Of a stretch of 37,708 nt of DNA, positions 1 through 37,708 are shown in pieces. Origin of the DNA: a virus. Position 1 is the stretch's first letter. Every line of letters starts with the position of its first letter. Below the pieces are notes generated by a model. It worked only from the letters and a program-made list of their open reading frames with translations. It did no database searches and was not told the origin of the DNA. The DNA lies in the IMG/VR virus record IMGVR_UViG_3300026255_000014, positions 1 through 37,708 of that record. One strand, 5' to 3'. The position numbers and the translations under genes are program-made.

Positions 1-312
1 CCGTTTTGTGGGAGGACACCGAATCCAGACTGGACTGATGAGAGCTACATAGAGTGTACAAATCGTAAATGTTCTCTTTATGGTTATGGAATGAGTACAG
101 GCGACTGGAACACCCGCCCAATTGAGGATGACCTTCGCAAGCGCATTGCCGAGTTGGAGGCGCTTGTTAATGTGTCGGAAGGTCTTTACGAGCGTATCTA
201 TGAGCAAGCAGCCCGCATTGCCGAGCTGGAGGCGGAGATTGTCCAACTTACCGCTCACGATGCTACAGAGCGGCAAGATGATAAGTGGATACCGGAGGTG
301 CAGGATGTGTAA
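1..312 (+). CDS. Lar-like zinc-ribbon protein, 5' truncated by window edge; duplicate copy of 37306..37638
   Basis: ORF track 91..312 translation is identical to the C-terminal part of 37306..37638; the frame is open back to position 1. Confidence 0.5.
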   Translation, partial: PFCGRTPNPDWTDESYIECTNRKCSLYGYGMSTGDWNTRPIEDDLRKRIAELEALVNVSEGLYERIYEQAARIAELEAEIVQLTAHDATERQDDKWIPEVQDV

Positions 313-382
313 CTTTTTCAGTTTTGTAACAGACCCAGTGAATCACCCAGCGGAGTATTACTACTTCGACTGGGAATATCGC
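1..382. repeat. Terminal redundancy, left copy; identical to 37327..37708
   Basis: Direct comparison of the first and last 382 nt of the window shows identity; implies a unit genome of about 37,326 bp. Confidence 0.9.
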
Positions 383-1069
383 AAGGCGCACCTAAACGAC
401 GATGGAGTGGACAGCCATTCGCATATCTGTGCATACTACCTCCTCAACGAGGATAGATGTAACAAATATGAGTTCAATCCGCTGACTGGAAGATTTGATA
501 TTGACCAAATCAACTCGGAGCGTGATGATTCAAATGCTGCAGAAAAGTGGGCGAAACGGCAGGACTTCAAAGAGATTGTCGAGACACTTATTATCAAGCC
601 GATTGTCAAACCGTTTGAGTTGCCAAAGGTAGAACAAGTGACAGATGAACAAATTGGCTGGCTGAAGGAGTGGGCTTCGGTCAGGGATTTGGTCGGGGCT
701 TCGGTCTGGGCTTTGGTCGGGGATTCGGTCAGGGATTCGGTCTGGGCTTTGGTCGGGGTTTCGGTCAGGGATTTGGTCTTGGATTCGGTCAGGGATTTGG
801 TCGGGGCTTCGGTCTGGGCTTCGGTCAGGGCTTCGGTCAGGGATTTGGTCGGGGCTTCGGTCTGGGCTTCGGTCAGGGATTCGGTCTGGGCTTCGGTCTG
901 GGCATATATCAGCAGTTTTTTCGCCATCAACTACAAATACAACTTTTCGTCTGTAGCAAATCTTTGGAACGCAGGGCTTGTACCCTCATTTGACGGTGAG
1001 ACATGGCGGTTGCATAGCAGCGAGAATGCGGATGTGGTTTACGAGTGGACGCCGGAGGTGCAGGAATGA
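305..1069 (+). CDS. Hypothetical protein with internal tetrapeptide tandem-repeat array and C-terminal WTPEVQE tail
   Basis: Same frame as ORF 122..1069; likely start ATG 305 sits 5 nt after GGAGGTG and overlaps the upstream stop. Ends in the conserved junction CCGGAGGTGCAGGAATGA. Frame assignment through the repeat is ambiguous. Confidence 0.5.
   Translation: MCNFFSFVTDPVNHPAEYYYFDWEYRKAHLNDDGVDSHSHICAYYLLNEDRCNKYEFNPLTGRFDIDQINSERDDSNAAEKWAKRQDFKEIVETLIIKPIVKPFELPKVEQVTDEQIGWLKEWASVRDLVGASVWALVGDSVRDSVWALVGVSVRDLVLDSVRDLVGASVWASVRASVRDLVGASVWASVRDSVWASVWAYISSFFAINYKYNFSSVANLWNAGLVPSFDGETWRLHSSENADVVYEWTPEVQE
672..899. repeat. 19 tandem copies of a 12-bp unit GGGNTTYGGTCN
   Basis: Read directly from sequence. 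No stop codons in any forward frame, which is why ORFs 122..1069, 670..993 and antisense 436..930 all cross it. Confidence 0.9.
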
Positions 1070-1395
1070 ACACGCTTAAACCCTGCCCGTTTTGTGGGAG
1101 GACACCGAATCCAGACTGGACTGATGAGAGCTACATAGAGTGTACAAATCGTAAATGTTCTCTTTATGGTTATGGAATGAGTACAGGCGACTGGAACACC
1201 CGCCCAATTGAGGATGACCTTCGCAAGCGCATTGCCGAGTTGGAGGCGCTTGTTAATGTGTCGGAAGGTCTTTACGAGCGTATCTATGAGCAAGCAGCCC
1301 GCATTGCCGAGCTGGAGGCGGAGATTGTCCAACTTACCGCTGATAGCACAGACGAGCGGAAAGATGATAAATGGATACCGGAGGTGCAGGAATGA
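1066..1395 (+). CDS. Lar-family-like zinc-ribbon protein (putative restriction alleviation), paralog B
   Basis: N-terminus MNTLKPCPFCG...C..RKC is a CxxC/CxxC zinc ribbon resembling Lar family proteins, followed by a coiled coil. Near-identical to 37306..37638 except the last ~12 codons. ATG 1066 overlaps the upstream stop (ATGA). Confidence 0.6.
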   Translation: MNTLKPCPFCGRTPNPDWTDESYIECTNRKCSLYGYGMSTGDWNTRPIEDDLRKRIAELEALVNVSEGLYERIYEQAARIAELEAEIVQLTADSTDERKDDKWIPEVQE

Positions 1396-1670
1396 TACCC
1401 AAAATTTCCAAAATTGTTAGCTGTGTTTGCGGATGTCATTTGGTCAAATTTGAGAAATGGACGGACGATGAAGGTGCGTGGATGATGATCTATGAGAACT
1501 CTTTTTACTCGAAACAGGGTGGAAGAATCAGGTCATATCTGAAACGGCTATGGTCAGCAATTCGAGGAAAAGAATATTTGCTGATGGAAATCAGCATGTC
1601 AGACGAGGATACTGTTGGGCTAAGAAATGCACTAATCGAGGCTACAACACCGCCGGAGGAAATCCAATGA
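1392..1670 (+). CDS. Hypothetical small cysteine-containing protein
   Basis: ORF track 1371..1670 with internal ATG 1392 overlapping the upstream stop; contains CVCGC. Confidence 0.5.
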   Translation: MIPKISKIVSCVCGCHLVKFEKWTDDEGAWMMIYENSFYSKQGGRIRSYLKRLWSAIRGKEYLLMEISMSDEDTVGLRNALIEATTPPEEIQ

Positions 1671-2014
1671 ACCGGACATACGAGGAGTGGGTTGAGAAGG
1701 TGACGGACAGCAGCGCGGACATTGCGCTCGCGGACATGCTGGCGGACTGGCAGGCGGACATCATCCGGCGAATGAAGGCTGAGCACGCGCTGAATAAGCG
1801 CATTGCCGAGCTTGAGGCGGAAATTGACCAACTTACCGCTGATAGCACAGACGAGCGGAAAGATGATAAGTTACCTGAGCGGGAAGTGTGTGAAGCCTGT
1901 GGGGGCGATGGCACATTGCTTTTAGTAGACAACTATAAAGGGCAAGCAACTGCAACTGTGGATTGTCCGTATTGCAACGGCACTGGACGTGTAAACAAGG
2001 AGTGTGAGAAATGA
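1667..2014 (+). CDS. Hypothetical protein with coiled coil and DnaJ-type CxxCxGxG zinc finger
   Basis: Translation contains CEACGGDG and CPYCNGTG; the coiled-coil segment RIAELEAEIDQLTADSTDERKDDK is shared with the Lar paralog at 1066..1395. ATG 1667 overlaps the upstream stop. Confidence 0.55.
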   Translation: MNRTYEEWVEKVTDSSADIALADMLADWQADIIRRMKAEHALNKRIAELEAEIDQLTADSTDERKDDKLPEREVCEACGGDGTLLLVDNYKGQATATVDCPYCNGTGRVNKECEK

Positions 2015-2271
2015 GCGAACAAAAACATCCGGATGATATGACGCGTGAGGAGTTGATAACCCTCGTGTTTGCAATGAGCTGGGCGGCGTTGGATTTAGCA
2101 CAACACTTGGATTTTACAACAAAAATGCTGAAAGAAGAATATCGAAAAGAAGCTTACAAAAAAGCGACACGAATGGCATATGAACTTGTTTTTCTTTGGG
2201 AAGTAGAACCAGATGAGAATAAAAATTCGGGGATACTTATTTTTGGTGAAAATGGATTGGAGCACGGGTGA
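2011..2271 (+). CDS. Hypothetical protein
   Basis: ORF track; ATGA overlap with upstream gene. Confidence 0.5.
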   Translation: MSEQKHPDDMTREELITLVFAMSWAALDLAQHLDFTTKMLKEEYRKEAYKKATRMAYELVFLWEVEPDENKNSGILIFGENGLEHG

Positions 2272-2585
2272 GCAAGTCAGCGCTTGAAGCAGAGTTAGCC
2301 TTGCAGATCAAGGCGTTGGGCTTGCCAGAGCCGATTCGCGAATACCAGGCAATCAAGGGGCGCAAGTTCCGCTTTGACTTCGCTTGGCTTGAGCACAGGT
2401 TGCTGGTGGAAGTGAACGGCGGCACTTACACGAAGGGTGCTCACTCTACAGGTCGGGGCATTGCGCGAGACTACGAGAAGGCGAACCTGGCTACGCTTGA
2501 CGGCTGGCGCGTGCTGATGTTTGACGGCAAGGCGGTGAAGTCGGGTGTAGCGGTTGAAGTGATTAGACAGGCGTTGGAGGCGTGA
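2268..2585 (+). CDS. Putative PD-(D/E)xK-type endonuclease (DUF559/Vsr-like motif pattern)
   Basis: GTG start overlapping the upstream stop; pattern FRFDFAW...LLVEVNGG...H...RD...L...GW.VLMF recalled from DUF559-like nuclease domains. Confidence 0.45.
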   Translation: MSKSALEAELALQIKALGLPEPIREYQAIKGRKFRFDFAWLEHRLLVEVNGGTYTKGAHSTGRGIARDYEKANLATLDGWRVLMFDGKAVKSGVAVEVIRQALEA

Positions 2586-2586
2586 G

Positions 2587-2793
2587 ATGGGATTTTGGGA
2601 AGAGTTGTTTTATGTCATGAAAATAGGCACGGTGGTTACCGTGTGTGGGCTGTTGGCAAGTTTGCCGATAGCGTTTATAGTGCACCTCGCGATTGAAAGA
2701 GGGTCATGGTTGTTAGGTGTTCTGGCGTTCTTTGTACTTATAGCGATTGCGAGTATAGCGGTTGTTATCCAAGAACGGTTGGAGGCTGAATGA
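2587..2793 (+). CDS. Small membrane protein (two predicted TM helices)
   Basis: Hydrophobic segments VVTVCGLLASLPIAFIV and LLGVLAFFVLIAIASIAVV. Confidence 0.5.
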   Translation: MGFWEELFYVMKIGTVVTVCGLLASLPIAFIVHLAIERGSWLLGVLAFFVLIAIASIAVVIQERLEAE

Positions 2794-2993
2794 ACCTGAT
2801 TGATTTCCTAAGCGAAGAGGACGCGGAAAAGCGGATTGAGGTGCAAGAGCGAATTGACGATCTTAGTCGCATAGAGAGAGCGATGCTGCATTTGTGGGTG
2901 GAAGGGTACACCCAGGCAGAGATTGCGCACATGTTTGGTTACTCGCAAGCCAGAATAAGCCAAATACTCAATGCGATTTATAAAAGCTGCTGA
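2790..2993 (+). CDS. Putative HTH transcriptional regulator (sigma-70 region 4-like)
   Basis: C-terminal YTQAEIAHMFGYSQARISQIL resembles a sigma region 4 / LuxR-type helix-turn-helix. Confidence 0.45.
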   Translation: MNLIDFLSEEDAEKRIEVQERIDDLSRIERAMLHLWVEGYTQAEIAHMFGYSQARISQILNAIYKSC

Positions 2994-3021
2994 AAAGTGG
3001 CTGTAGTATATAGAGACCATT

Positions 3022-3225
3022 GTGGAAACTAAACGTTGTGTTTGTGGAAAAGTTATAACGAGCCAATTTGATCTTTGCAACAAGTGTCAAGCAGAATACG
3101 GGCTTGACCGTTCTAAGTGGGATGATTGGCTTATTTTCATGGTTGCCGACTTGAAGCGAGAGCGTCGCCAACAAGCAATCATTGACGAACGCGAAATCCC
3201 GTTTTCAGAATTAGGAATTTATTAA
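3022..3225 (+). CDS. Small zinc-ribbon protein
   Basis: GTG start; CVCG...CNKC motif. Confidence 0.45.
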   Translation: METKRCVCGKVITSQFDLCNKCQAEYGLDRSKWDDWLIFMVADLKRERRQQAIIDEREIPFSELGIY

Positions 3226-3238
3226 CTCGGAGGCTTGA

Positions 3239-3571
3239 ATGGAATTTGACGTAACACTTTTAGGAATCGTAATCGGAATGATGGTACTGGCTAACCGCTT
3301 GGTGGCAATGCTCATTACTCCGCTGTGGGATAAGTACGGCTGGGACAAATTCTGGCTGGCTTATCCGGCCTGGATTCTATCGGGCGTGTTCGTGTGGCTG
3401 ACTGAAGTCAACCTATTCGCCGCGTTTATCCCGAACGCGCTTATCGGTCAAATTCTGACTGCCATTGTTGCAGGGGGCGGGTCAAATTTGCTCCACGACC
3501 TAACTGACAAGCCATCCAATCTGATTGCCGTGTTTGATGCGCTTGAAGATTACGAGGACGCTAACGGATGA
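3239..3571 (+). CDS. Membrane protein, possible holin
   Basis: 110 aa with multiple hydrophobic helices and an acidic C-terminus; holin assignment is an inference from size and topology only. Confidence 0.4.
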   Translation: MEFDVTLLGIVIGMMVLANRLVAMLITPLWDKYGWDKFWLAYPAWILSGVFVWLTEVNLFAAFIPNALIGQILTAIVAGGGSNLLHDLTDKPSNLIAVFDALEDYEDANG

Positions 3572-3996
3572 GCGAGAACGTCTGGGTCGCAATCATAGCA
3601 GCGGTGCTGGGCGGAGGCGGCTTAGGCGCGGCTATTGTGAATGCGCTTGCTAACCGCAAGAAAATCCAGGCGGACTGTGTAGCAACGCTATCATCCGCAT
3701 ACGAAACGAGGATAAACGCTCTCAATAAGCGGGCGGATGAGTTGGCGGCGAAGGTGGACGTCTTAGAGGCGCAAGTCTGTGGCTTGCGTTCTGCATTGTC
3801 AGACAGGGAAGCAATGATTGTGAATTTGCAGCAGGAAAATGTTGATTTGCAGGCGCAAGTGGACAAGTTGAGCAAGGTGGTCAACAACAAGGATAAGCGT
3901 ATTCGGGAATTAGAGCGACAGGTCGCTGACCTGACCACGCGTCTTAATGCGATGAATGGTGGAAGCGGTGAGGCTTGGCTCGGTGGTACTGATTGA
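3568..3996 (+). CDS. Membrane-anchored coiled-coil protein
   Basis: N-terminal TM segment WVAIIAAVLGGGGLGAAIV followed by a long heptad-rich region. Confidence 0.5.
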   Translation: MSENVWVAIIAAVLGGGGLGAAIVNALANRKKIQADCVATLSSAYETRINALNKRADELAAKVDVLEAQVCGLRSALSDREAMIVNLQQENVDLQAQVDKLSKVVNNKDKRIRELERQVADLTTRLNAMNGGSGEAWLGGTD

Positions 3997-4059
3997 CTTC
4001 AAGGGCGGACGTGAGTGCCTGTGGACGTACTCTCGCTTACTTGAAAAGACGAGGATTAT

Positions 4060-5071: not shown

Positions 5072-6375
5072 GTGCAAATCTGTATTTAGGTGACTGTCTG
5101 GAAGTCTTATCAACGCTTGAAGCGGATAGCATTGACACCTGCATCACTGACCCGCCTTACGAGTTAGGTTTCATGGGTAAGAAGTGGGATTCAAGCGGCA
5201 TTGCGTTCCAGCCTGAAACTTGGCAAGCCGTATTCAGGGTGCTGAAACCAGGTGCAATTCTGCTTGCCTTCGGCGGCACTCGCACCTATCACCGCATTGC
5301 TTGCGCTATTGAGGACGCTGGCTTTGAAATCCGTGACACTATCGCTTGGGTATACGGGAGCGGATTCCCTAAAAGTTACGACATAAGTAAGGGAATTGAC
5401 AAACAAGCTGGAGCTGAAAGGGAAATAGTAGGCTACAAGGAAACATCAACTTATCCAGATAGCGATGGTGTTGCTCATTACAAAAACAGGCAACAAAGCA
5501 ATGGTTCTCAAGTCAATACAGGAGGTATGCCAGAAATCACCGCGCCCTCCACCCCCGAAGCGCAACTCTGGGATGGCTGGGGCACGGCGTTGAAGCCTGC
5601 CTTTGAGCCGATAGTTGTTGCGATGAAGCCGATTGACGGCACGTTTGTCAACAACGCGCTCACTTGGGGCGTGGCTGGCTTGTGGATTGACGGGGGTAGG
5701 GTGGGGACGTCAAAAAACGTTCCTGCATCACCAAGCGATAAAGGCACTCTGCAATGTAAAGGTTTGGGCGGTGGATGGGATAGAAGCGGAATGAATCCGA
5801 ACATTGGTCGCTTCCCTGCCAACTTGATTCACGACGGCTCGGATGAGGTGGTGAGTGGGTTTCCGAATACTACGAGCGGCAAGGTTGCGGCTGGAACTAT
5901 GCGAGGCTTGAAAAGCAATCACAATGTGGCATACGCAGACATCGCCGCCGGAACTGAATTGACTGGCTACGGCGACTCTGGCTCAGCCGCGCGCTTTTTC
6001 TACTGTGCGAAAGCCAGCCGAAGCGAGCGCAACGCTGGGCTGGAGGGGATGGAAGAAAAGGTCGGCGGTGGAATGAAGGGCACGGAAGACCAAACGCTTT
6101 TGACTGGCTCTGGAAACATCCGCAACAATAAAATGCAAAACCACCATCCCACCGTCAAGCCAATCGAACTGATGCGCTACCTTGTTCGGCTTACCAAAAC
6201 GCCAACAGGCGGGGTGGTACTTGACCCGTTCATGGGGTCTGGCACGACTGGCATTGCTTGCGTGTTGGAAGGACGCGAGTTTATCGGAATTGAGCGGGAA
6301 GCGGAGTATGTCGAGATTGCAGAAAAGCGGATTGCGCATTACAGGTTGCCGATATTGGAAGAAGTGATCGAGTGA
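5068..6375 (+). CDS. DNA methyltransferase (N6-adenine/N4-cytosine, beta-class order)
   Basis: N-terminal DPPY (ITDPPYELGF) and C-terminal AdoMet motif LDPFMGSGTTGIA. Confidence 0.85.
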   Translation: MSANLYLGDCLEVLSTLEADSIDTCITDPPYELGFMGKKWDSSGIAFQPETWQAVFRVLKPGAILLAFGGTRTYHRIACAIEDAGFEIRDTIAWVYGSGFPKSYDISKGIDKQAGAEREIVGYKETSTYPDSDGVAHYKNRQQSNGSQVNTGGMPEITAPSTPEAQLWDGWGTALKPAFEPIVVAMKPIDGTFVNNALTWGVAGLWIDGGRVGTSKNVPASPSDKGTLQCKGLGGGWDRSGMNPNIGRFPANLIHDGSDEVVSGFPNTTSGKVAAGTMRGLKSNHNVAYADIAAGTELTGYGDSGSAARFFYCAKASRSERNAGLEGMEEKVGGGMKGTEDQTLLTGSGNIRNNKMQNHHPTVKPIELMRYLVRLTKTPTGGVVLDPFMGSGTTGIACVLEGREFIGIEREAEYVEIAEKRIAHYRLPILEEVIE

Positions 6376-8966
6376 AAAAGTACGATCCCTGGAATTGCGA
6401 CCTTGATAAGTACGAATTTGACCCTGTGGCTGGGCAGGTTGCAGTCGACTTTATTGAAAATTATATTACCCATGTCAAAGGGGAGTTAGGCGGCAAGCCT
6501 TTTTTGCTTTTGGAGTGGGAAAAGGATTTTGTAAGAAACCTTTTCGGTTGGAAAGAAAAGGAAACAGGTTATCGGCGTTACCGTGAGGCGTTTGTATTTG
6601 TGGCACGGAAAAATGGCAAAGCATTAGAAGTCAATACTCCGATTCTGACTACTACAGGTTGGAAGAAACACGGCGATTTAGTCCCTGGAGACTTTGTTTT
6701 TTCTCCTGATGGCGTACCCGCAAAGGTTATCTATTCTACTCCTCATTATGAGGGGAATTGTTATTTTGTGGATTTCTCAGGCGATGAAGCAATTATCGCT
6801 CACGAAAATCACGAATGGAAAACTAACCGCACCTGGTATACAGGAAAGCCCAAATGGATAGAAGGTGAAAAGCCTTTGGTTACCACTAAGCGGATTGCGG
6901 AAACTCTACGATGTGGGAAACGCCAAGACCTTGTGCATTCTGTGGATGTTGCGAAACCGATACAGTTTGAGCCAAAAGAATACACAATACCCCCGTATGT
7001 TTTAGGCGTTTGGCTTGGCGATGGCGACTCTGACAGTTGCAGGATCACGATTGCAGAACCTGAAATTGTCCAGAAGCTATCTGATTATGGTTATCCAGCC
7101 GAATATAGATCAAGATACCGACACCTTGTTGGACGGGGGAAGTTTCAAAAGCAACTGCGTGAAAAGGGCTTACTGGGCAATAAGCATATACCACAAGAAT
7201 ACTTGCTTGGTTCAGTTGAGCAAAGGATCGACCTCTTGCGCGGATTGATGGACACAGACGGTTATGTGTCTTCGGCTGGACAATGCGGAATTGCATTAAC
7301 CGACGGTAATTTGTTTCGCCAAGTTGTCGAATTAATTACAGGCTTGGGATTAAAGCCTCGCGTAATGATTGATCGTGCTCAGTTAAATGGGGTTGACTGC
7401 GGAGTTAGATATAGAGTCCACTTCTATGCCTATCAAGACACGCCAATAGCATATATTGAGCGAAAAGCCAAACGGCAAAAAGAAACTCCAAAAACAAGGC
7501 GGCGCAGCCAGACTCGGATGATTTCAAATGTTACGCCCGCAGGTAAGCAAACAGTCAACTGCATCACAGTCGAAGGCGGGATGTATCTCGCAGGAAAGCA
7601 ACTTATCCCAACTCACAACTCACCTCTTGGGGCTGCCATCGCGCTTTATCTGTTGATTGTAGACAATGAGCCTGGTGCAGAGTTGATCTCTGTAGCAGCA
7701 GACCGAGACCAGGCACGGGCGATTTTTGACACGGCTCGTTTTATGGTAAAGCAAAACGCCGCCCTGGACGAATTGGTTAGTGCATATCGAAATGCGATTG
7801 TCGCTAAGCAAGGGGCTTCAGTTTACAAAGTTGTTTCATCGGATGCTGGCACTAAGCATGGTGGAAACTTACATGCTGCGCTTTTTGACGAGTTGCACGC
7901 TCAGAAGAACCGAGACCTTTACGATGTTGTGCAAACCAGTTTTGGCGCGCGCCGTCAACCACTGCTGATTTCTTTTAGTACGGCAGGGTTTGATCGTGAG
8001 TCGATCTGCTATGAAGTTTACTCAATGGCAAAGCAGATTTCTGAGGGCATAATCCAGCGAGATTGGTTTTACCCCGTAATATACGAGGCATCGCCAGAAG
8101 ACGATTGGACAAGCGAAGATACGTGGAAGAAAGCCAATCCGAGTTTGGGACACTCGATCAAGATTGATTACCTGCAGAAGAATTATGAAAAGGCTCTATC
8201 AAGCCCGCAGTTCCAAAACACTTTCAAGCGTTTGTATCTCAATATGTGGACATCGGCAGAAACACGCTGGCTTGATATGCAAAACTGGGACAAATGCGGT
8301 GAGCAACCGATTGACATGGGACTGCTTGAAGGGGCTGAATGTTACGGCGGTCTTGACCTTGCGACAGTTTCTGACATTGCTGCTTTTGTACTGGATTTCC
8401 CGAATGAAAGCGGTGAAGAGGAATTGCACACCTGGCTTCCGACCTTGTTCTGTCCAGAGTCAAAGTTGACCGACCCAGGTTTCATTGACCGCGACATTTA
8501 CAGGGCTTGGGCTGACCAGGGCTATTTGATTGCAACGCCTGGAAACGTGATTGACTACGAGTACATCATTGCTGAAATTGAGCGATTAGGTGAACTTTAC
8601 AACATTAAAGAGATCGCATTTGACCGTTGGGGTGCTGCACAGATTTCACAAACGCTTACCAATATGGGCTTTACTTTGGTTGGTTTTGGTCAAGGGTACG
8701 TGAGCATGTCACCACCCACAAAAGAAGTTGAGCGGTTGATATTACAAGGCAGGGTGAGACATGGAAACCACCCTGTAATGCGTTGGATGGCGGATAACGT
8801 TATGGTTACGACTGACCCTGCAGGGAATATCAAGCCAGACAAGAAGAAAAGCAGGCAGAAGATTGACGGCGTGGTTGCGGCAATCATGGCAACCGATAGG
8901 GCAATTAGAAATTCTGTAGGTCGCAAGGACTCTGTTTACGAAAAAAGAGGGTTGGTTGTTCTATGA
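6372..8966 (+). CDS. terL: Terminase large subunit, interrupted by an in-frame intein
   Basis: 864 aa; removing residues 84..416 yields the P-loop ARKNGKS and a Walker B-like LLIVDNE with a C-terminal nuclease-like domain. GTG start overlaps the upstream stop. Confidence 0.9.
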   Translation: MKKYDPWNCDLDKYEFDPVAGQVAVDFIENYITHVKGELGGKPFLLLEWEKDFVRNLFGWKEKETGYRRYREAFVFVARKNGKALEVNTPILTTTGWKKHGDLVPGDFVFSPDGVPAKVIYSTPHYEGNCYFVDFSGDEAIIAHENHEWKTNRTWYTGKPKWIEGEKPLVTTKRIAETLRCGKRQDLVHSVDVAKPIQFEPKEYTIPPYVLGVWLGDGDSDSCRITIAEPEIVQKLSDYGYPAEYRSRYRHLVGRGKFQKQLREKGLLGNKHIPQEYLLGSVEQRIDLLRGLMDTDGYVSSAGQCGIALTDGNLFRQVVELITGLGLKPRVMIDRAQLNGVDCGVRYRVHFYAYQDTPIAYIERKAKRQKETPKTRRRSQTRMISNVTPAGKQTVNCITVEGGMYLAGKQLIPTHNSPLGAAIALYLLIVDNEPGAELISVAADRDQARAIFDTARFMVKQNAALDELVSAYRNAIVAKQGASVYKVVSSDAGTKHGGNLHAALFDELHAQKNRDLYDVVQTSFGARRQPLLISFSTAGFDRESICYEVYSMAKQISEGIIQRDWFYPVIYEASPEDDWTSEDTWKKANPSLGHSIKIDYLQKNYEKALSSPQFQNTFKRLYLNMWTSAETRWLDMQNWDKCGEQPIDMGLLEGAECYGGLDLATVSDIAAFVLDFPNESGEEELHTWLPTLFCPESKLTDPGFIDRDIYRAWADQGYLIATPGNVIDYEYIIAEIERLGELYNIKEIAFDRWGAAQISQTLTNMGFTLVGFGQGYVSMSPPTKEVERLILQGRVRHGNHPVMRWMADNVMVTTDPAGNIKPDKKKSRQKIDGVVAAIMATDRAIRNSVGRKDSVYEKRGLVVL
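6621..7619 (+). mobile_element. Intein (333 aa) with LAGLIDADG homing endonuclease domain inside the TerL Walker A motif
   Basis: Begins ALEVNTPILT, contains LGVWLGDGDS and LLRGLMDTDGYV, ends ...LIPTHN followed by Ser; splicing restores ARKNGK|SPLG. Confidence 0.8.
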
Positions 8967-15606: not shown

Positions 15607-15623
15607 TTAGAAAGGAATAAATA

Positions 15624-26032: not shown

Positions 26033-28426
26033 ATGGCAAATTGGGCTAAGTTACAAGAGCAACTGACAGGACTGCCTGTTGTAAAGCGAGACAAGCACAG
26101 CATCCACTTTGCCAAAGGTGACGGGCAAATCGTTGCCAACTTCTCAGGCGCACCCTGTCACTATGAAGAGAACGGCATCTGGAAAGCACTCGACACCGCC
26201 ATCGTTGAACTGGAAGACGGCTCACTTGGCGCAAAGGGCGTACCAGTCCGCTTGAACCTGAACGGGCTTGTCAGGCTTATCAACGAAAACAACGAGGACT
26301 TATACAGTCAAGTCACGACACGGGTGGGCGTGTTCAATAGCACTACCCGCAACTTGGTAGATTACATCAACCTGCCAGTAGGACAAGTTCAAGACGACCT
26401 GCTGATAAAAGACACCGACCTCTATTCTCACAGTTTGCGCTTGACCGAAACAGGCTTGCGCGAAGAAATTGTCATCAAGTCAAAGCCAGCGTTTGTAACC
26501 GACAAGGCTAACTTATGGCTGGTACTTGACACGGTTGTGACGGGCGTAAGTTTCGAGGACGGCTGGCTGGATGCGTTTGAGATTGCGCAAATGCACTTCC
26601 CACCTCCAACCGCTACCGATGCGGAGGGGCGAGAGGGCACGGCGAAACGCTATGCCAAGAATATTGGTGGCGTTCAGCACATCTTTACTGGCTTGAAATT
26701 CAGTGAGTTGTATCGGGCGGCTTACCCTGTAACGGTTGACCCTGACTTTAGTGGTGGGTCTGGATATGTAATTACTAGTCAAAGTACTGATTATGCTACT
26801 GCAAGAACAACGAGTGTATCTTCAGCAGCTTGGTCGAATAGGTCTGACGTTGGGCAGGGACAGTGGTCTGTTTATCTAAGAACTTTACGCATCTTTACAA
26901 AGTTTGACACATCAAGTATAGGAGCAGGCTCAACAGTTACACAAGTTAACTTGGCTATGTGCCCTTATTATAACAATTCTGCTACAGATTTTGACATCCA
27001 GATATGTATGCAAGACTGGTCGGCTCAAGACCCCATAGCATCGGGAAATAGAGAAACAGCGTTTGACAACTGTCTCGCAGAAACAGATTACGATGTTTGG
27101 TTGAACAGTGCTGATTGTCCGAAAAGACAGAGATATACGGGTGGAAATATGACCACATCGTGGATTAACAAGACTGGCACAACATATTATAGTATTCGCT
27201 CAAGTAGGGACTACAACGGCGATGAGCGTGTAATTGATGGAAATACTGAAACTGTTAACTTGTGTGCGCCAGATAACGCCACCGAATCCTACCGCCCCGT
27301 TCTTACCGTCACCTATCTCATTCCCGACTACACCCTCACTTGCGCCGCCGGTTCATACTCGCTGACTGGCACGGATTGCACGCTTACGCACACTCCGGCA
27401 TCGCAAAACCTGACCCTCACCTGTTCCGCTGGCTCATATTCGCTAACAGGCACGAACGCCGACTTGACGGTCAAGCGGAATTATGTGCTGGCGTGTGGTG
27501 CTGGAAGTTATTCGCTCACCGGCTCGGATGTGGATTTTGTTCTGCAACGCAATTACTCGCTTGAATGCGGTGCTGGAAGTTACAGCCTGACTGGTACGGA
27601 CACGACATTCGAGGTCAAGCGAAATTACACGCTTGTCTGTGAAGCTGGAAGCTACAGTCTTACTGGTACTAACGCCGACTTGACGGTCACCCGACATTAC
27701 ACGCTAACCTGTGAGACTGGAAGTTATGCGCTTGCTGGCACTAACGCCGACCTTATTTTACAGCGCAACTATGTGTTAGCTTGCTCTGCTGGCAATTACT
27801 TAATCACAGGCACGGACGTAACACTCACTGTTCAACGCAATTACACCCTCACCTGCGCCGCCGGTTCATACTCGCTGACTGGCACTAACGTCACGCTCAC
27901 ATCAACCGTAAAGCAAAACTTGACGCTGGCTTGTTCTGCAGGCTCGTACTCGCTTACTGGCACTAACGCCGACTTGACGGTCACCCGACATTACACGCTA
28001 ACCTGTGAAGCTGGAGGTTATGCGCTTACTGGCTCAATCGTTGATCTGACAGTCCAGCGCAACTATGTGTTGGTGTGTGAAGCTGGTAGTTACGCGCTAA
28101 CCGGAACAAACGCAGGCTTGACTTCTGCTCGCACAATGGCACTCGAATCAGGTTCGTACGCCTTGACTGGCACGAATGCCGGTCTATACCGCGCGTTGGT
28201 TATGGCTTGTGAGGCTGGAACTTATGCGCTCACAGGCTCGGATGCTACGTTCAATGCCAATTACATATTTGCTCTCGGAATGGGGAGTTACGTTCTGGTT
28301 GGCACGAGCGTGGGATTGTTCGTTCTCTCGCCAACACCGGCTTGCAGAACCGCGACAATCGAATTTGAGAACAGAACATTTGCAATTCCGCATGAGAATA
28401 GAACATTAGAGGTCACATGTCACTAA
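26033..28426 (+). CDS. Large repeat protein: ~430-aa N-terminal domain plus ~16 tandem 22-23-aa Cys-containing repeats
   Basis: Repeats of consensus YTLTC.AGSYSLTGTNADLTV.RN span roughly nt 27320..28330. Confidence 0.6.
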   Translation: MANWAKLQEQLTGLPVVKRDKHSIHFAKGDGQIVANFSGAPCHYEENGIWKALDTAIVELEDGSLGAKGVPVRLNLNGLVRLINENNEDLYSQVTTRVGVFNSTTRNLVDYINLPVGQVQDDLLIKDTDLYSHSLRLTETGLREEIVIKSKPAFVTDKANLWLVLDTVVTGVSFEDGWLDAFEIAQMHFPPPTATDAEGREGTAKRYAKNIGGVQHIFTGLKFSELYRAAYPVTVDPDFSGGSGYVITSQSTDYATARTTSVSSAAWSNRSDVGQGQWSVYLRTLRIFTKFDTSSIGAGSTVTQVNLAMCPYYNNSATDFDIQICMQDWSAQDPIASGNRETAFDNCLAETDYDVWLNSADCPKRQRYTGGNMTTSWINKTGTTYYSIRSSRDYNGDERVIDGNTETVNLCAPDNATESYRPVLTVTYLIPDYTLTCAAGSYSLTGTDCTLTHTPASQNLTLTCSAGSYSLTGTNADLTVKRNYVLACGAGSYSLTGSDVDFVLQRNYSLECGAGSYSLTGTDTTFEVKRNYTLVCEAGSYSLTGTNADLTVTRHYTLTCETGSYALAGTNADLILQRNYVLACSAGNYLITGTDVTLTVQRNYTLTCAAGSYSLTGTNVTLTSTVKQNLTLACSAGSYSLTGTNADLTVTRHYTLTCEAGGYALTGSIVDLTVQRNYVLVCEAGSYALTGTNAGLTSARTMALESGSYALTGTNAGLYRALVMACEAGTYALTGSDATFNANYIFALGMGSYVLVGTSVGLFVLSPTPACRTATIEFENRTFAIPHENRTLEVTCH

Positions 28427-31713: not shown

Positions 31714-31742
31714 CGCGGGGGCAGTACCCGCCAGCTCCACTA

Positions 31743-31780: not shown

Positions 31781-31781
31781 A

Positions 31782-32242: not shown

Positions 32243-32283
32243 TCAGGTGTAGTAAAGTAATTCACACAAAGATAAGGAGCAAA

Positions 32284-33031: not shown

Positions 33032-33300
33032 CCGTACTCGGAATCAACGTAACAGACAGAGATCCAGACTTATTTTATTGGCCAAAGCCTAACTGGCACG
33101 GCAAACCTGCAGAGTTGTTGAGAGTTGAAAGCAAGATTGAAGATCTGTGGGAGTGTTACGGAAAAAAGTGTGACATTATCCCGTTGCCGAATATCGAACT
33201 TGACGAGCTATTAGACGAAATTGATCACCTGGAAAAAATCAAAACAAGATTATGGAACGAATGGCAACACTTAGAAACAGAAAAGGAGCTAACACAATGA
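33028..33300 (+). CDS. Hypothetical protein
   Basis: ORF track; ATGA overlaps at both ends. Confidence 0.5.
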   Translation: MTVLGINVTDRDPDLFYWPKPNWHGKPAELLRVESKIEDLWECYGKKCDIIPLPNIELDELLDEIDHLEKIKTRLWNEWQHLETEKELTQ

Positions 33301-33953
33301 ACAAGTCAGAATCAATTCAGAACTTATCAGCAGCCTTATCGAAGGCGCAAGCGGAAATGCCTGCTATCAAGTTTGACAGCAAAAATCCGTTTCTCAAAAA
33401 CGACTACGCCAGTTTAGGCGCAATCATAGCGGGGGCGCGACCCGTACTCGCGAAGCACGGCCTCTCGGTAGCACAACTCACTTTTGGCGAAGATGGTGTG
33501 GCTGGAGTCGAGACCGTACTCATGCACGCTTCCGGCGAATGGATCAGTAACTCTATCTCAATGCCTATTGGCGAAGAGAAGGGCAAGTCATCCGCGCAGG
33601 TTGCAGGTTCTATTGTAACGTATCTTCGCCGGTACAGCCTGGCTTCAATACTGGGTATCTATTCAGACGAAGACGGTGACGGCAATAAGCCAGAGCCAAC
33701 GCGCAAGCCAACCAGAACAAAGCCAGAAGCTCAAGCCAACGATGACATCATGACTATCGAGCGAGCATCAAAAGTCACGAACAGCAAAGGCACGCCTTAC
33801 GTTGACATCGCAAGTGACGTGTTGCAACGAATGGTGATCGGCATCAATAAGGGTTTGCAGAACAGCGCGGATGACGAAAAACGAGCCGAGTATCTCGAAA
33901 AGAAACAGGCTATTGGCGTGATATTGAAGGCACGCGCAGACAAGTCAATTTGA
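33297..33953 (+). CDS. ERF-family single-strand annealing protein
   Basis: Motif SAQVAGSIVTYLRRYSLASILGI and overall pattern typical of ERF recombinases; ATG 33297 inside ORF 33252..33953. Confidence 0.7.
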   Translation: MNKSESIQNLSAALSKAQAEMPAIKFDSKNPFLKNDYASLGAIIAGARPVLAKHGLSVAQLTFGEDGVAGVETVLMHASGEWISNSISMPIGEEKGKSSAQVAGSIVTYLRRYSLASILGIYSDEDGDGNKPEPTRKPTRTKPEAQANDDIMTIERASKVTNSKGTPYVDIASDVLQRMVIGINKGLQNSADDEKRAEYLEKKQAIGVILKARADKSI

Positions 33954-36211: not shown

Positions 36212-36402
36212 GCGACAAAATGTGCGCGACTTGTAAATATTTTCAAACTTCAATCAGGCAGCCGCAGGGGTCTAGTCAGAAAGAGTTAGTCATGACCTGC
36301 CGCAAAGGGCACGTTCCTATCGCGTGGTTTAGCGGTAGAGAGTGCGAAGACTATCAACCAAAACTATCAGAGACACAGGAGCAAACATGTACCAAAAACT
36401 AA
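36208..36402 (+). CDS. Small cysteine-containing hypothetical protein
   Basis: ORF track; CATC...C..GH. Confidence 0.4.
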   Translation: MSDKMCATCKYFQTSIRQPQGSSQKELVMTCRKGHVPIAWFSGRECEDYQPKLSETQEQTCTKN

Positions 36403-36746
36403 TATTGATCGGCCATTTAGGCAACATTCCAGACACTCGCTACACAGCAAAAGGTGATCCCGTGACGAGCTTCAGCGTGGCGACTTCGCGGCGTTACGGT
36501 GAGACGGACGAGACCACCTGGTTCAGAGTGTCGGTGTGGGGCAAGCAAGCGGAGGCGTGCCAGACTTACTTGCACAAAGGCGCGAAGGTGCTGGTGGAAG
36601 GCAGGTTACGCCCTGACTCGAACGGCAACCCGACCACGTTCCAGCGCAAGGACGGCACGTGGGGCGCGAGCTTCGAGGTGACCGCAGAGAACGTAAGGTT
36701 CTTAGACGGCAAGGCTGATAGTGAGCCTGCTGAAGTGCCGTTTTAG
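36387..36746 (+). CDS. ssb: Single-stranded DNA-binding protein
   Basis: MYQKLILIGHLGNIPDTRYT...TWFRVSVWGKQAEAC..YLHKGAKVLVEGRL is the SSB OB-fold signature. Confidence 0.85.
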   Translation: MYQKLILIGHLGNIPDTRYTAKGDPVTSFSVATSRRYGETDETTWFRVSVWGKQAEACQTYLHKGAKVLVEGRLRPDSNGNPTTFQRKDGTWGASFEVTAENVRFLDGKADSEPAEVPF

Positions 36747-36755: not shown

Positions 36756-37124
36756 ATGAGTAAAGAGTTCAAAATAAATCTTCTCGAAGAAATGGATTTG
36801 CTTTATGCCAAGATACACAGACTCGAAGACGTTTGTGAACAGGCGAACATTATGCTGAATCAGCGAGATGAAATCGAAGAGGGGCTCAACAAGCGCATTG
36901 CCGAGTTTGAGGAAAAGCAACGCTGGCGTGTTGTTGCAGATGGAGAGTTGCCGGAGGTGTATCGGGATGAAGACGGCGAATTTATACCCTTTCTTGTTTG
37001 CGAAGGAGACGGAGACCGCCCATTCATAGCAATGTATGGCGGTAAAAACTGGCATGCTGGAATATTTGTGCCTGACATCACCCACTGGATGCCCTTGCCA
37101 GAATTGCCGGAGGTGCAGGAATGA
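36756..37124 (+). CDS. DUF551-like protein
   Basis: C-terminal HWMPLPELP resembles the DUF551 signature; ends in the conserved PEVQE junction. Confidence 0.5.
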   Translation: MSKEFKINLLEEMDLLYAKIHRLEDVCEQANIMLNQRDEIEEGLNKRIAEFEEKQRWRVVADGELPEVYRDEDGEFIPFLVCEGDGDRPFIAMYGGKNWHAGIFVPDITHWMPLPELPEVQE

Positions 37125-37309
37125 GCGACATTAAAGAGTATCAGTCAGATTCAATAGTTTGCGATTTGTGTAATGGAAAAGGAAATATATTGATGACCTT
37201 CCATGATTGGATTTTAGATGAAACGCGCACGGAAGTGAGTACCTGTATCCGTTGTAAAGGCAAGGGCTTCTTGCATGATGGCAAACAGCCGCCGGAGGTG
37301 CAGGAATGA
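37121..37309 (+). CDS. Small zinc-ribbon protein
   Basis: CDLCNGKG...CIRCKGKG; ends in the PEVQE junction. Confidence 0.55.
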   Translation: MSDIKEYQSDSIVCDLCNGKGNILMTFHDWILDETRTEVSTCIRCKGKGFLHDGKQPPEVQE

Positions 37310-37638
37310 ACACGCTTAAACCCTGTCCGTTTTGTGGGAGGACACCGAATCCAGACTGGACTGATGAGAGCTACATAGAGTGTACAAATCGTAAATGTTC
37401 TCTTTATGGTTATGGAATGAGTACAGGCGACTGGAACACCCGCCCAATTGAGGATGACCTTCGCAAGCGCATTGCCGAGTTGGAGGCGCTTGTTAATGTG
37501 TCGGAAGGTCTTTACGAGCGTATCTATGAGCAAGCAGCCCGCATTGCCGAGCTGGAGGCGGAGATTGTCCAACTTACCGCTCACGATGCTACAGAGCGGC
37601 AAGATGATAAGTGGATACCGGAGGTGCAGGATGTGTAA
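37306..37638 (+). CDS. Lar-family-like zinc-ribbon protein (putative restriction alleviation), paralog A
   Basis: Same N-terminal zinc ribbon and coiled coil as 1066..1395; complete copy of the gene truncated at 1..312. Confidence 0.6.
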   Translation: MNTLKPCPFCGRTPNPDWTDESYIECTNRKCSLYGYGMSTGDWNTRPIEDDLRKRIAELEALVNVSEGLYERIYEQAARIAELEAEIVQLTAHDATERQDDKWIPEVQDV

Positions 37639-37708
37639 CTTTTTCAGTTTTGTAACAGACCCAGTGAATCACCCAGCGGAGTATTACTACTTCGACTGGG
37701 AATATCGC
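37327..37708. repeat. Terminal redundancy, right copy; identical to 1..382
   Basis: Direct sequence identity. Confidence 0.9.
37631..37708 (+). CDS. 5' end of the tandem-repeat protein gene (duplicate of 305..382), truncated by window end
   Basis: Identical to 305..382. Confidence 0.45.
   Translation, partial: MCNFFSFVTDPVNHPAEYYYFDWEYR

What the first reader, a model, noticed from the sequence alone, without database searches (positions are those of the whole stretch)
1799..1872. Mosaic segment shared between a Lar paralog and the DnaJ-type zinc-finger gene
About 70 nt encoding RIAELEAEIDQLTADSTDERKDDK in 1667..2014 are near-identical to 1300..1370 in the Lar paralog, while the rest of the two genes is unrelated. 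A related NKRIAEFEE segment is in 36756..37124. This indicates patchwork recombination within the early small-gene array.
Basis: seen in the sequence. Interest (0 to 1): 0.45.

Follow-up and report, generated by a model that had tools for sequence, protein, structure and literature searches.

The report
Recombination joint shuffling phage protein modules
The 70-base segment shared by two otherwise unrelated small phage genes is real and is one copy of a short in-frame "joint" (the end of a helix plus a flexible linker) at which a group of uncultured bioreactor and sludge phages repeatedly swap the front and back halves of their small early proteins.

Summary
Bases 1799-1869 match 1300-1370 at 68 of 71 positions, with sharp edges and random flanks. 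A third copy lies in a second Lar gene, and shorter "RIAELE boxes" lie in three more places.

The match is at DNA level, not only at protein level. Two independent encodings of the first 14 codons would be identical with probability about 2e-7.

Related metagenomic phage contigs show what the segment is. A nearly invariant 42-nt block (S1, RIAELEAEIDQLTA) is followed by a variable four-codon linker (S2) and then ERQDDKWIP. This unit joins about 33 unrelated N-terminal modules to several C-terminal modules. The N-terminal modules are mostly Lar-type zinc ribbons. The C-terminal modules are a DnaJ-type zinc finger, at least six DUF551 types, a short tail, or an immediate stop.

The same N-module occurs with different C-modules and the reverse. 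Breakpoints between near-identical and unrelated sequence fall on the joint or on an 18-nt gene-junction box. One foreign gene is an exact chimera of two window genes, joined in a 15-nt box.

The most likely mechanism is short-homology recombination. The phage's own ERF annealing protein may carry it out, but that step is inferred.

This resembles the mosaicism of lambda Ea22 and the domain shuffling of HsdS. I rate it a new variant of a known kind, of moderate interest.

The parts
1799..1869 (+). Joint copy inside the zinc-finger gene. S1 is 1799-1840 (RIAELEAEIDQLTA, the population consensus allele). S2 is 1841-1852 (DSTD), followed by ERKDDK at 1853-1870.
   Evidence: AF2 places S1 at the end of helix 17-58 and S2 in a low-confidence non-helical stretch
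1300..1370 (+). Joint copy at the 3' end of LarB. S1 is a private allele with 3 differences (EIVQL). S2 plus ERKDDK is identical to the copy in the zinc-finger gene.
37540..37610 (+). Joint copy at the 3' end of LarA, repeated at 214-284 because of the terminal overlap. S1 is identical to LarB. S2 is the common HDAT allele.
214..284 (+). The same LarA joint copy, seen at the start of the window (terminal overlap 1..382 = 37327..37708).
36891..36912 (+). Short RIAELE box in the DUF551 gene (NKRIAEFEE). It has a 15-nt exact match to 1796-1810 and is the crossover site of the L050 chimera.
1228..1249 (+). First, upstream RIAELE box inside LarB (RKRIAELEAL). The same box is in LarA at 37468-37489, repeated at 142-163.
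   Evidence: (family D7)
1667..2014 (+). Gene for a 115-aa protein: helical N-module (MNRTYEEW...), then the joint, then a C-terminal zinc finger with two CxxCxGxG motifs.
1066..1395 (+). LarB: Lar-type zinc ribbon, then coiled coil, then the joint, ending ...KWIPEVQE*.
37306..37638 (+). LarA: identical to LarB at 275 of its first 276 nt, then a different S2 allele, ending ...WIPEVQDV* and overlapping the start of ORF254.
305..1069 (+). ORF254, a 254-aa protein of unknown function with a 12-nt tandem array. In relatives it always lies just downstream of a gene that ends in the joint.
36756..37124 (+). Gene for a 122-aa protein: N-module MSKEFKINLL..., then a short RIAELE box, then a DUF551 domain.
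   Evidence: (DUF551 22.8 bits, cut-off 22)
37121..37309 (+). Stand-alone 62-aa gene for a DnaJ-type zinc finger, lying in the array between two junction boxes.
1392..1670 (+). orf92, a 92-aa array gene of unknown function between LarB and the zinc-finger gene.
1052..1069 (+). Junction box CCGGAGGTGCAGGAATGA (…PEVQE*, Shine-Dalgarno sequence plus ATGA stop/start overlap). It is the left edge of the LarA/LarB repeat.
   Evidence: (D11, D12)
1378..1395 (+). Junction box, exact copy, at the end of LarB.
   Evidence: breakpoint in L017
37107..37124 (+). Junction box, exact copy, at the end of the DUF551 gene.
   Evidence: breakpoints in L017, L025, L035 and L036
37292..37309 (+). Junction box, exact copy, at the end of the small zinc-finger gene.
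33252..33953 (+). ERF-family single-strand annealing protein. It is the candidate enzyme for the short-homology exchanges; this role is inferred.
   Evidence: PF04404, 98 bits; literature
36387..36746 (+). SSB gene just upstream of the array. It was used as the internal control for synonymous divergence.

Best explanation
The 71-nt segment is one copy of an in-frame recombination joint that is shared across a population of related, uncultured siphovirus-like phages from anaerobic digesters, bioreactors and activated sludge.

At protein level the joint has three parts. S1 (RIAELEAEIDQLTA) forms the last two heptads of an amphipathic helix, with I, L, I, L at 3-4-3 spacing. S2 is an acidic flexible linker of four variable codons, followed by ERQDDK. 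The unit ends in KWIP, where a C-terminal domain begins.

At DNA level the 42-nt S1 block is almost identical in every gene that carries it, as are its 15-22-nt start (the 'RIAELE box') and the block after S2. Homologous recombination between different genes, in one genome or between co-infecting phages, therefore crosses over there in frame. This yields new pairings of N-terminal modules (many Lar-type zinc ribbons and several non-Lar modules) with C-terminal modules (DnaJ-type zinc finger, DUF551 variants, a short tail, or a stop followed by the ORF254 cassette). An 18-nt junction box at gene ends plays the same part for whole-gene cassettes.

In this window the three full copies carry three different allele combinations: LarA has S1-V with S2-HDAT, LarB has S1-V with S2-DSTD, and the zinc-finger gene has S1-D with S2-DSTD. 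The fourth combination (S1-D with S2-HDAT) occurs in relatives. At least one crossover must therefore have fallen within the 13 nt between the S1 variable site and S2.

What is shown: the shared DNA, the reassortment, and the breakpoints. What is inferred: that the phage ERF annealing protein and/or host RecA carries out the exchange; that repeated exchange, rather than selection on the DNA itself, keeps S1 uniform; and that the helix mediates oligomerisation, by analogy with Ea22.
For: (1) The identity is at DNA level and has sharp edges: 68 of 71 positions, E = 7e-23.

(2) Codon-usage null: two independent encodings of S1 would be identical with probability 10^-6.75.

(3) In a sample that is not biased by codon choice (loci found through peptide patterns or protein similarity), S1 uses the same codon as the window in 148 of 154 codons (96%). 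Conserved residues of the adjacent SSB gene in the same contigs use the same codon in only 64% of cases; binomial P about 1e-21.

(4) Census: 70 distinct proteins carry the joint. They fall into about 33 N-module clusters. C-classes are zinc finger, stop, SPNDTQ tail and at least 6 DUF551 types. Nine N-modules occur with 2-4 different C-class or S2 combinations. For example, the window's MNRTYEEW module carries a zinc finger here but DUF551 in L014, L017, P0011, P0032 and P0047. The window's Lar module carries the zinc finger in P0013.

(5) Breakpoints. L024 equals window 212..2645 at 99.88%, and its only 3 mismatches are in S1. Left of 212 it has an unrelated gene, and its SSB gene is 78% identical. 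The L050 gene equals window 36756-36905 (147 of 150) plus 1796-2014 (218 of 219), joined within a shared 15-mer. L017 lacks everything between junction boxes 37124 and 1378, and it swaps the zinc finger for DUF551 exactly after 1871. Of 23 informative ends of long HSPs with at least 95% identity, 17 lie in the boxes, which make up 16% of the region (P about 1e-9). Most of the rest lie at gene boundaries.

(6) 13 of 33 whole metagenome contigs end within 150 nt of the joint, against 4.9 expected (P = 5e-4). This is what a multi-context repeat would produce.

(7) AF2 predicts a helix over residues 17-58 that ends at the end of S1 (block means: 91, 96 and 97 for residues 21-50; 80 for 51-60). Residues 59-73 are non-helical, with pLDDT about 54-60.

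(8) ERF (98 bits) and SSB are encoded next to the array. Erf-type recombinases have been shown experimentally to recombine short and diverged sequences and to drive phage mosaicism (PMC3945230).
Against: All related sequences are metagenome assemblies, and no reads were inspected.

The large metagenome scan required an exact S1 match, so only the smaller samples not biased by codon choice speak to conservation.

No experiment links ERF to these events. Crossovers within 13-15 nt of identity could equally be microhomology-mediated illegitimate joins that were retained because they are in frame.

The uniformity of S1 could also reflect selection on the DNA or RNA itself. One copy (L053) does carry 3 synonymous changes, which shows such changes are tolerated.

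The function of every module is unknown. Even the 'Lar' and 'DnaJ-type' labels are below the Pfam cut-offs for the window's own proteins.
Confidence: 0.8

Rival explanations
1. The match reflects only a conserved coiled-coil motif. The two genes independently encode a common RIAELEAE-type helix, and the DNA similarity is a by-product of protein constraint and codon bias.
For: RIAELE-like peptides are common in coiled coils. Weak Pfam coiled-coil hits cover this stretch.
Against: With this genome's codon usage, identical encoding of the 14 S1 codons has probability about 2e-7 per pair. The unconstrained linker S2 plus ERKDDK is also 30 of 30 identical between LarB and the zinc-finger gene. Codon identity is 96% in S1 against 64% at conserved SSB residues. 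Identity ends abruptly at both edges.
Confidence: 0.02
2. The apparent module shuffling is an assembly artefact. Short-read assemblers joined different phage strains at a 42-72-nt repeat and so created chimeric genes.
For: The joint is a repeat shared by co-occurring genomes, and assemblies often break there (13 of 33 contigs end within 150 nt). Everything outside the window is metagenomic.
Against: Several crossovers lie in exact-identity tracts of only 13-15 nt. These are LarA against the L024 type, and the L050 chimera. That is shorter than the k-mers assemblers usually use (my own knowledge; the only k values seen here are k127 and k141 in contig names). Several contigs carry the names k141_ or k127_, which are longer than the repeat. 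The same chimeric proteins recur on many contigs from different sources: P0001 on 11 contigs (JGI and ENA), P0032 on 6, P0021 on 9 contigs (11 read), and P0003 in two separate sequencing runs. L001 reproduces the window's whole layout, including across the circular join.
Confidence: 0.05
3. S1 is kept uniform because the DNA or RNA itself has a function, such as a protein-binding site, a nuclease or recombinase target, a regulatory RNA or a translational-coupling element. On this reading the module shuffling is secondary.
For: Synonymous sites of S1 are far more conserved than those of the neighbouring SSB gene. S2, directly adjacent, is hypervariable and is bracketed by a small inverted repeat, CCGCT..AGCGG. 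HNH and GIY-YIG nuclease genes occur in these phages.
Against: There is no Rfam match in the window. No promoter-like or terminator-like site lies in any copy. RNA folding is not better than shuffled controls (z from -0.4 to -1.6). The joint sits at different distances from gene ends: it is internal in the zinc-finger gene and terminal in the Lar genes. L053 carries three synonymous changes. No conserved overlapping reading frame is possible, because the flanks differ in every context.
Confidence: 0.1
4. The event was purely intragenomic. A single gene conversion or duplication between LarB and the zinc-finger gene within this one genome produced the match, without any population-wide joint.
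For: LarB and the zinc-finger gene share an identical 42-nt tract that includes the rarer DSTD/ERK S2 allele. LarA and LarB are a recent duplicate pair.
Against: The S1 of the zinc-finger gene is the population consensus allele. It shows 0 mismatches to copies in at least 8 unrelated gene contexts in other contigs. It was therefore not copied from LarB, whose S1 has 3 private differences. The DSTD allele also occurs in other genomes with other N- and C-modules. An intragenomic conversion of the S2 tract alone remains possible as one step within the larger process.
Confidence: 0.03

Closest known systems
Mosaic Ea22 proteins of lambda and Stx phages (exo-xis region; PMC10834534)
   Same: These are small early phage proteins built as N-terminal segment, coiled coil, mobile linker and interchangeable C-terminal domain. 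One Ea22 variant carries DUF551, which that paper calls a portable domain. The genes are explicitly described there as mosaic.
   Different: There is no sequence membership: no window protein or relative hits Pfam Ead_Ea22. In Ea22 the N-terminus and coiled coil are constant and only the C-terminal domain varies. Here both sides vary, with about 33 N-modules, around a very short joint of 42 nt that is uniform at nucleotide level. The hosts and phage group are different and uncultured.
Reassortment of target-recognition domains in HsdS subunits of Type I restriction enzymes (PMC3874165)
   Same: Variable globular domains are separated by a conserved alpha-helical (coiled-coil) region. Crossing-over within the conserved region creates hybrid proteins with new domain combinations, as in StySQ formed from SP and SB.
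   Different: HsdS is a cellular defence protein of known function, and its conserved regions are much longer. Here the modules are small phage proteins of unknown function, and many are Lar-like, which would place them on the anti-restriction side. The resemblance is one of mechanism, not of family.
Phage mosaicism through relaxed homologous recombination by Rad52-like recombinases (Red-beta, RecT, Erf; PMC3945230)
   Same: Phage-encoded annealing proteins, including an Erf, recombine short and diverged homologies. Exchanges of about 100 bp within genes are reported to be frequent. This phage encodes an ERF next to the array.
   Different: That work concerns homologous genes of lambdoid phages and prophages. 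Here the homology is a tiny shared block inside otherwise non-homologous genes, so each exchange creates a new domain architecture.
Conserved boundary or linker sequences at gene junctions of lambdoid phages (own knowledge: Juhala et al. 2000; Clark et al. 2001)
   Same: Short conserved sequences at module boundaries have been proposed as crossover points. The 18-nt junction box CCGGAGGTGCAGGAATGA, present four times exactly, behaves in this way.
   Different: Here the box also encodes the C-terminal PEVQE, the Shine-Dalgarno sequence and the ATGA overlap. It works together with a second, intragenic joint.
Intragenic mosaicism of mycobacteriophage endolysins, and tail-fibre domain shuffling at conserved motifs
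   Same: Both are cases of domain-level shuffling within phage genes. The endolysin case is mentioned in PMC9371310. The tail-fibre cases (His boxes, collagen-like repeats) are from my own knowledge.
   Different: Endolysin mosaicism was attributed to illegitimate recombination without a shared linker. Tail-fibre shuffling concerns large structural proteins. Here the genes are very small early genes joined by one uniform linker.

Membership tests
Lar restriction-alleviation family (Pfam PF14354) | Sequence match to the family model at or above the curated cut-off | tested here: inconclusive
   The window's LarB scores 21.2 bits against a cut-off of 28.6, E = 3e-4. However, 11 of the 18 aligned sequences (16 of them Lar-type) match at E <= 0.001, with best E = 4e-14. 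Precomputed PF14354 hits and JGI 'Lar family' names exist for relatives.
Lar restriction-alleviation family (Pfam PF14354) | Small N-terminal zinc ribbon with two Cys pairs, ending in a WNxR motif | tested here: met
   Read directly from the sequence: MNTLKPCPFCG...IECTNRKC...DWNTRP in LarA and LarB. The same pattern occurs in most Lar-type N-modules.
Lar restriction-alleviation family (Pfam PF14354) | Alleviates Type I (EcoKI-type) restriction in vivo | not testable with these tools
   This needs a restriction-alleviation assay. The host is unknown.
DnaJ central cysteine-rich domain (Pfam PF00684) | Repeated CxxCxGxG zinc-binding motifs | tested here: met
   CEACGGDG and CPYCNGTG are present in residues 74-106 of the 115-aa protein.
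DnaJ central cysteine-rich domain (Pfam PF00684) | Score at or above the Pfam cut-off, and the context of a J-domain co-chaperone | tested here: not met
   The score is 28.2 bits against a cut-off of 32.7. There are only two motifs rather than four, and no J domain. The protein is 'DnaJ-type' in motif only.
DUF551 (Pfam PF04448) | Sequence match at or above the cut-off | tested here: met
   The product of 36756..37124 scores 22.8 bits against a cut-off of 22. Relatives reach E = 6e-11. The C-modules that begin WIPVSERLPE are DUF551.
Ead/Ea22-like family (Pfam PF13935, InterPro IPR025153) | Sequence match of the N-terminal and coiled-coil region | tested here: not met
   There is no Ead_Ea22 hit for any window protein at E <= 0.1, nor for any of 18 relatives at E <= 0.001.
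Ead/Ea22-like family (Pfam PF13935, InterPro IPR025153) | Architecture of N-segment, coiled coil, mobile linker and swappable C-terminal domain | tested here: met
   AF2 predicts a helix over 17-58 followed by a low-confidence linker. The swappable C-terminal domains are documented. This is a resemblance in design only.
ERF single-strand annealing proteins (Pfam PF04404) | Sequence match at or above the cut-off | tested here: met
   33252..33953 scores 98 bits against a cut-off of 25, E = 7e-28.
ERF single-strand annealing proteins (Pfam PF04404) | Catalyses the exchanges at the joint | not testable with these tools
   This is inferred from PMC3945230. It needs phage crosses with and without erf.

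The most novel reading that the evidence does not exclude
The joint may be more than a passive recombination scar. It could be a maintained 'universal adaptor' for a phage counter-defence toolkit. On the genetic side, the uniform 42-nt block would let Lar-type zinc ribbons and other N-modules be re-paired at high frequency with different C-terminal effector modules (DUF551, zinc finger). That would make it a phage analogue of HsdS domain reassortment or of polymorphic-toxin tip exchange. On the physical side, the identical zipper heptads in several proteins made by one phage (LarA, LarB, the zinc-finger protein) could let them form mixed oligomers, so that combinations would arise at protein level as well.
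Probability: 0.15. Interest if true: 0.7.

Novelty: new variant of a known kind. Interest (0 to 1): 0.45.

Why it matters
This is an unusually clean natural example of domain shuffling caught in progress. A 42-nt in-frame block links dozens of unrelated N-terminal modules to several C-terminal modules. Donors, recipients and crossover points can all be identified to within 13-15 nt.

It also shows that recombination at very short shared sequences can create new protein architectures in phage early regions, and does not merely exchange alleles.

Finally, it marks out a set of small proteins (Lar-like zinc ribbons, DUF551, a mini DnaJ-type zinc finger, ORF254) that appear to be under pressure to diversify. 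These are natural candidates for host-takeover or anti-defence functions. The joint sequence can also serve as a probe for finding more such modules in metagenomes.

Tried and rejected
- **Cultured phages (INPHARED).** A megablast of window 1-4000 gave no match. LarB gave one weak tblastn hit to a Vibrio phage. TerL was below 45% identity in the listed best hits (all matches below 60%). The group therefore has no cultured relative to compare with.
- **Bacterial and archaeal genomes.** An exact S1 scan of 185,579 genomes gave 0 hits, so no host or prophage was found.
- **Functional RNA or regulatory site in the joint.** Rfam gave no match, no promoter or terminator site lies in any copy, and folding z-scores were -0.4 to -1.6. 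I rejected this as unsupported.
- **Overlapping gene as the cause of nucleotide conservation.** Alternative frames are open across the joint in the window, but their starts and ends lie in the context-specific flanks. Rejected.
- **Ea22 family membership.** There are no Pfam hits.
- **Solved structures.** None was found for the Lar, zinc-finger or DUF551 proteins.
- **Programmed diversification (retroelement, shufflon, integron).** The Pfam scans of the larger and early-region ORFs gave no reverse transcriptase, invertase or integrase hit (not every ORF was scanned). The repeats are direct, and the variation is between genomes. Not pursued further.
- **Using the exact-match metagenome scan to measure conservation.** I discarded this as circular. 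Only the loci not biased by codon choice were used for that purpose.
- **HSP-end statistic.** The version that includes short HSPs (76 of 82 ends in boxes) is partly circular, so I quote the version restricted to long HSPs.
Full report
**1. The observation**

The window is a circularly assembled phage genome. Bases 1..382 are identical to 37327..37708, so the unique length is 37,326 bp. An independent contig, L001, runs colinearly across the join at 99.4-99.7% identity.

Downstream of the SSB gene lies an array of small genes on the + strand:
- 36756..37124: N-module plus DUF551
- 37121..37309: 62-aa zinc finger
- 37306..37638: LarA, whose 3' part is also seen at 1..312
- 305..1069: ORF254
- 1066..1395: LarB
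- 1392..1670: orf92
- 1667..2014: N-module plus DnaJ-type zinc finger

The reported match is real. Bases 1300-1370 and 1799-1869 agree at 68 of 71 positions without gaps. The longest exact run is 42 nt, identity is at random level just outside the segment, and the self-BLAST E-value is 7e-23.

LarA carries a third copy (60 of 71 identical to LarB, 57 of 71 to the zinc-finger gene). The start of the segment, CGCATTGCCGAG..., recurs once more inside each Lar gene and once in the DUF551 gene at 36891-36912. The 22-mer start gives 7 matches in the window with up to 3 mismatches, which is 5 distinct sites, and none is expected by chance. The exact 12-mer start occurs at 6 sites in the unique sequence, including the one in the DUF551 gene.

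**2. The match is in the DNA, not only in the protein**

With this genome's codon usage, two independent encodings of the first 14 codons would be identical with probability 10^-6.75.

A three-way alignment shows a finer mosaic.
- LarA and LarB are identical at 275 of their first 276 nt. They then differ in a 20-nt cluster, which is the four linker codons I call S2.
- In S2, LarB is identical to the zinc-finger gene.
- In the preceding 42-nt block (S1, RIAELEAEI[V/D]QLTA), LarA equals LarB, and the zinc-finger gene differs at three sites.

The three copies therefore carry the allele pairs V/HDAT, V/DSTD and D/DSTD. The fourth pair, D/HDAT, is the commonest in relatives. All four combinations exist, so at least one crossover fell in the 13 nt between the S1 variable site and S2.

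**3. Relatives**

Cultured phages and reference bacterial genomes gave essentially nothing. Metagenomes gave a great deal:
- 8 viral contigs, found with degenerate peptide patterns
- 37 metagenome contigs, found with the S1 DNA pattern
- 59 proteins related to the zinc-finger protein

Those contigs whose record names describe the sample come from bioreactor or activated-sludge metagenomes.

In these sequences the unit S1, S2 (HDAT, HSDI, DSTD, RWRQ, RLCQ and others) and ERQDDKWIP joins very different partners.

On the N-terminal side I count about 33 clusters. Many are different Lar-type zinc ribbons. Others include the MNRTYEEW, MTDFTKEF, MNRPSYKELLF, MVSENINRL, MSEKFKKAL and MSKEFKINLL modules, a pentapeptide-repeat protein, and several coiled coils.

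On the C-terminal side there are four kinds of partner:
- an immediate stop (WIPEVQDV*, WIPEVQE* or WIPEVK*), usually followed by an ORF254 homologue
- at least six DUF551 types (WIPVSERLPE...)
- a short tail, SPNDTQTQTIVYGKESEE*
- the DnaJ-type zinc finger

Reassortment is direct.
- The N-module of the window's zinc-finger gene carries DUF551 in L014, L017, P0011, P0032 and P0047.
- The window's Lar module carries the zinc finger in P0013.
- The N-module of the window's DUF551 gene carries the window's zinc finger in P0003.

The census is biased toward zinc-finger partners, because that protein was the query.

**4. Breakpoints**

- **L024** is identical to window 212..2645 except for three bases, all inside S1. 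Left of 212 it has an unrelated gene, and its SSB gene is only 78% identical.
- **The L050 gene**, found in two separate sequencing runs, equals window 36756-36905 (147 of 150) followed by window 1796-2014 (218 of 219). The switch lies inside the shared 15-mer AAGCGCATTGCCGAG.
- **L017** keeps window 36890-37124, then jumps through the junction box to 1378-1871, and then has a DUF551 domain in place of the zinc finger.

Of 23 informative ends of long HSPs (at least 120 nt, at least 95% identity), 17 fall in the joint copies or junction boxes. These features cover 16% of the region, giving P about 1e-9. Most of the remaining ends lie at gene boundaries.

Contigs also tend to end at the joint: 13 of 33 against 4.9 expected, P = 5e-4.

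The 18-nt junction box CCGGAGGTGCAGGAATGA encodes PEVQE*, a Shine-Dalgarno sequence and an ATGA stop/start overlap. It occurs four times exactly, against 0.04 expected, and it forms the left edge of the LarA/LarB repeat.

**5. Conservation control**

The metagenome scan required an exact S1, so I used only loci found through peptides or protein similarity. Across 11 distinct gene contexts, S1 shares the window's codon in 148 of 154 cases (96%). Conserved residues of the adjacent SSB gene in the same set of contigs share the codon in 64% of cases.

S1 is therefore an island of identity. One copy, in L053, has three synonymous changes, so such changes are not forbidden.

**6. What the joint is in the protein**

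The S1 residues I, L, I, L follow a 3-4-3 heptad spacing.

AF2, run with a 25-sequence alignment, gives one long helix over residues 17-58 that ends exactly at the end of S1. Ten-residue block means are 91, 96 and 97 for residues 21-50 and 80 for residues 51-60. Residues 59-73 (S2 and the linker) are non-helical, with pLDDT about 54-60. The zinc finger is modelled poorly.

The S2 alleles look like variants of one another produced by compensated frameshifts or indels, which fits an unconstrained linker.

**7. Mechanism**

The pattern is what in-frame homologous recombination at a short shared block would produce.

The phage encodes an ERF-family annealing protein (98 bits) and an SSB next to the array. 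Erf, Red-beta and RecT have been shown to recombine short and diverged sequences far better than RecA, and to drive phage mosaicism, including exchanges of about 100 bp within genes (PMC3945230).

That ERF acts here is an inference. Joins within 13-15 nt of identity could also be microhomology events that were kept because they are in frame. Whether S1 stays uniform through constant exchange or through selection on the DNA cannot be decided here.

A further inference, with low weight: the WIPEVQE* tails may be DUF551 domains deleted between WIP(VSERLPE) and (PL)PEVQE*.

**8. Rivals**

- **Protein-level motif only.** Excluded by sections 2 and 5.
- **Assembly chimeras.** Unlikely, for three reasons. 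Several crossovers lie in 13-15-nt identities, which is shorter than the k-mers assemblers usually use (my own knowledge; the only k values seen here are k127 and k141 in contig names). Some contigs come from k = 127 or k = 141 graphs. The same chimeric proteins recur on up to 11 contigs from different sources.
- **A functional RNA or DNA site.** There is no support from Rfam, promoter and terminator scans, or folding.
- **A single intragenomic conversion.** This cannot be the whole story, because the S1 of the zinc-finger gene is the population consensus allele while LarB's S1 is a private variant.

**9. Comparison with known systems**

The design of N-segment, coiled coil, mobile linker and swappable C-terminal domain (DUF551 among them) matches the mosaic Ea22 proteins of lambda and Stx phages (PMC10834534). 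There is no sequence membership, however, and here both ends vary.

Mechanistically the closest parallel is reassortment of the target-recognition domains of HsdS through its conserved coiled-coil region (PMC3874165).

The window's proteins fall below the Pfam cut-offs for the Lar and DnaJ-type labels, but both labels are supported across relatives. DUF551 and ERF pass their cut-offs. No solved structures are related.

**10. Verdict**

The feature is a new variant of a known kind, namely phage mosaicism and domain shuffling at a conserved linker. It is notable for how short and uniform the joint is, and for the number of partners it connects. I rate its interest as moderate.

Noticed in passing
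window 1052-1069, 1378-1395, 37107-37124, 37292-37309 (variant at 292-309): An 18-nt junction box, CCGGAGGTGCAGGAATGA, ends four consecutive array genes with ...PEVQE* and supplies the Shine-Dalgarno sequence and the ATGA start overlap of the next gene (4 exact copies, 0.04 expected). Relatives have whole-gene insertions or deletions bounded by it. Some related phages use an analogous ...KESEE* junction.
   Followed up: partly
window 305-1069 (tandem array 671-903): ORF254 has no Pfam or PHROG match. It contains about 19 copies of a 12-nt unit, which encode SVWA, SVRD and LVGA-type tetrapeptides, and the copy number differs between relatives. In relatives it always lies directly after a gene that ends in the joint (...WIPEVQDV*), as if the joint were the left arm of an ORF254 cassette.
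   Followed up: partly
window 6372-8966: The large terminase is 864 aa long, has a Pfam Hom_end (homing endonuclease) hit at residues 273-350, and has a split ATPase match. This suggests an intein-like insertion.
   Followed up: no
window 32634-33031: This 398-nt stretch, which holds a 115-aa Cys-rich ORF, is 99.2% identical to L002 and L003. The other shared genes of those contigs are only 73-90% identical. It is another recently exchanged module.
   Followed up: no
window 31714-32283: The long intergenic region ahead of the early genes holds AAGTATTGTAATC repeats (31781-31817) and about 8 copies of GGGTTCA (32030-32090). These could be operators, iterons or an origin.
   Followed up: no
window 1841-1852 and the equivalent positions in the other joint copies: The four S2 codons are hypervariable between alleles (HDAT, HSDI, DSTD, RWRQ, RLCQ) and look like indel or frameshift variants of each other. 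They are bracketed in every allele by the 5-nt inverted repeat CCGCT..AGCGG. The fold is not statistically significant.
   Followed up: partly
window 15130-16133; 22066-22526; 27329-28243: In the structural region there are two tandem paralogous genes (about 72% identity), a 234-nt internal tandem duplication, and 72-81-nt repeats in the 797-aa ORF 26033..28426, which has no Pfam match.
   Followed up: no
L013-L049 (metagenome contigs): Thirteen of 33 whole contigs that carry the joint end within 150 nt of it. Anyone binning these phages should expect fragmented early regions and should treat joins at the joint with care.
   Followed up: yes
P0050: In one relative the zinc-finger C-module, preceded by ...ADERKDDKLYEREV, is fused to a 140-aa DNA N-6-adenine methyltransferase domain (PF05869). 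The right half of the joint can therefore attach to an enzyme as well.
   Followed up: no
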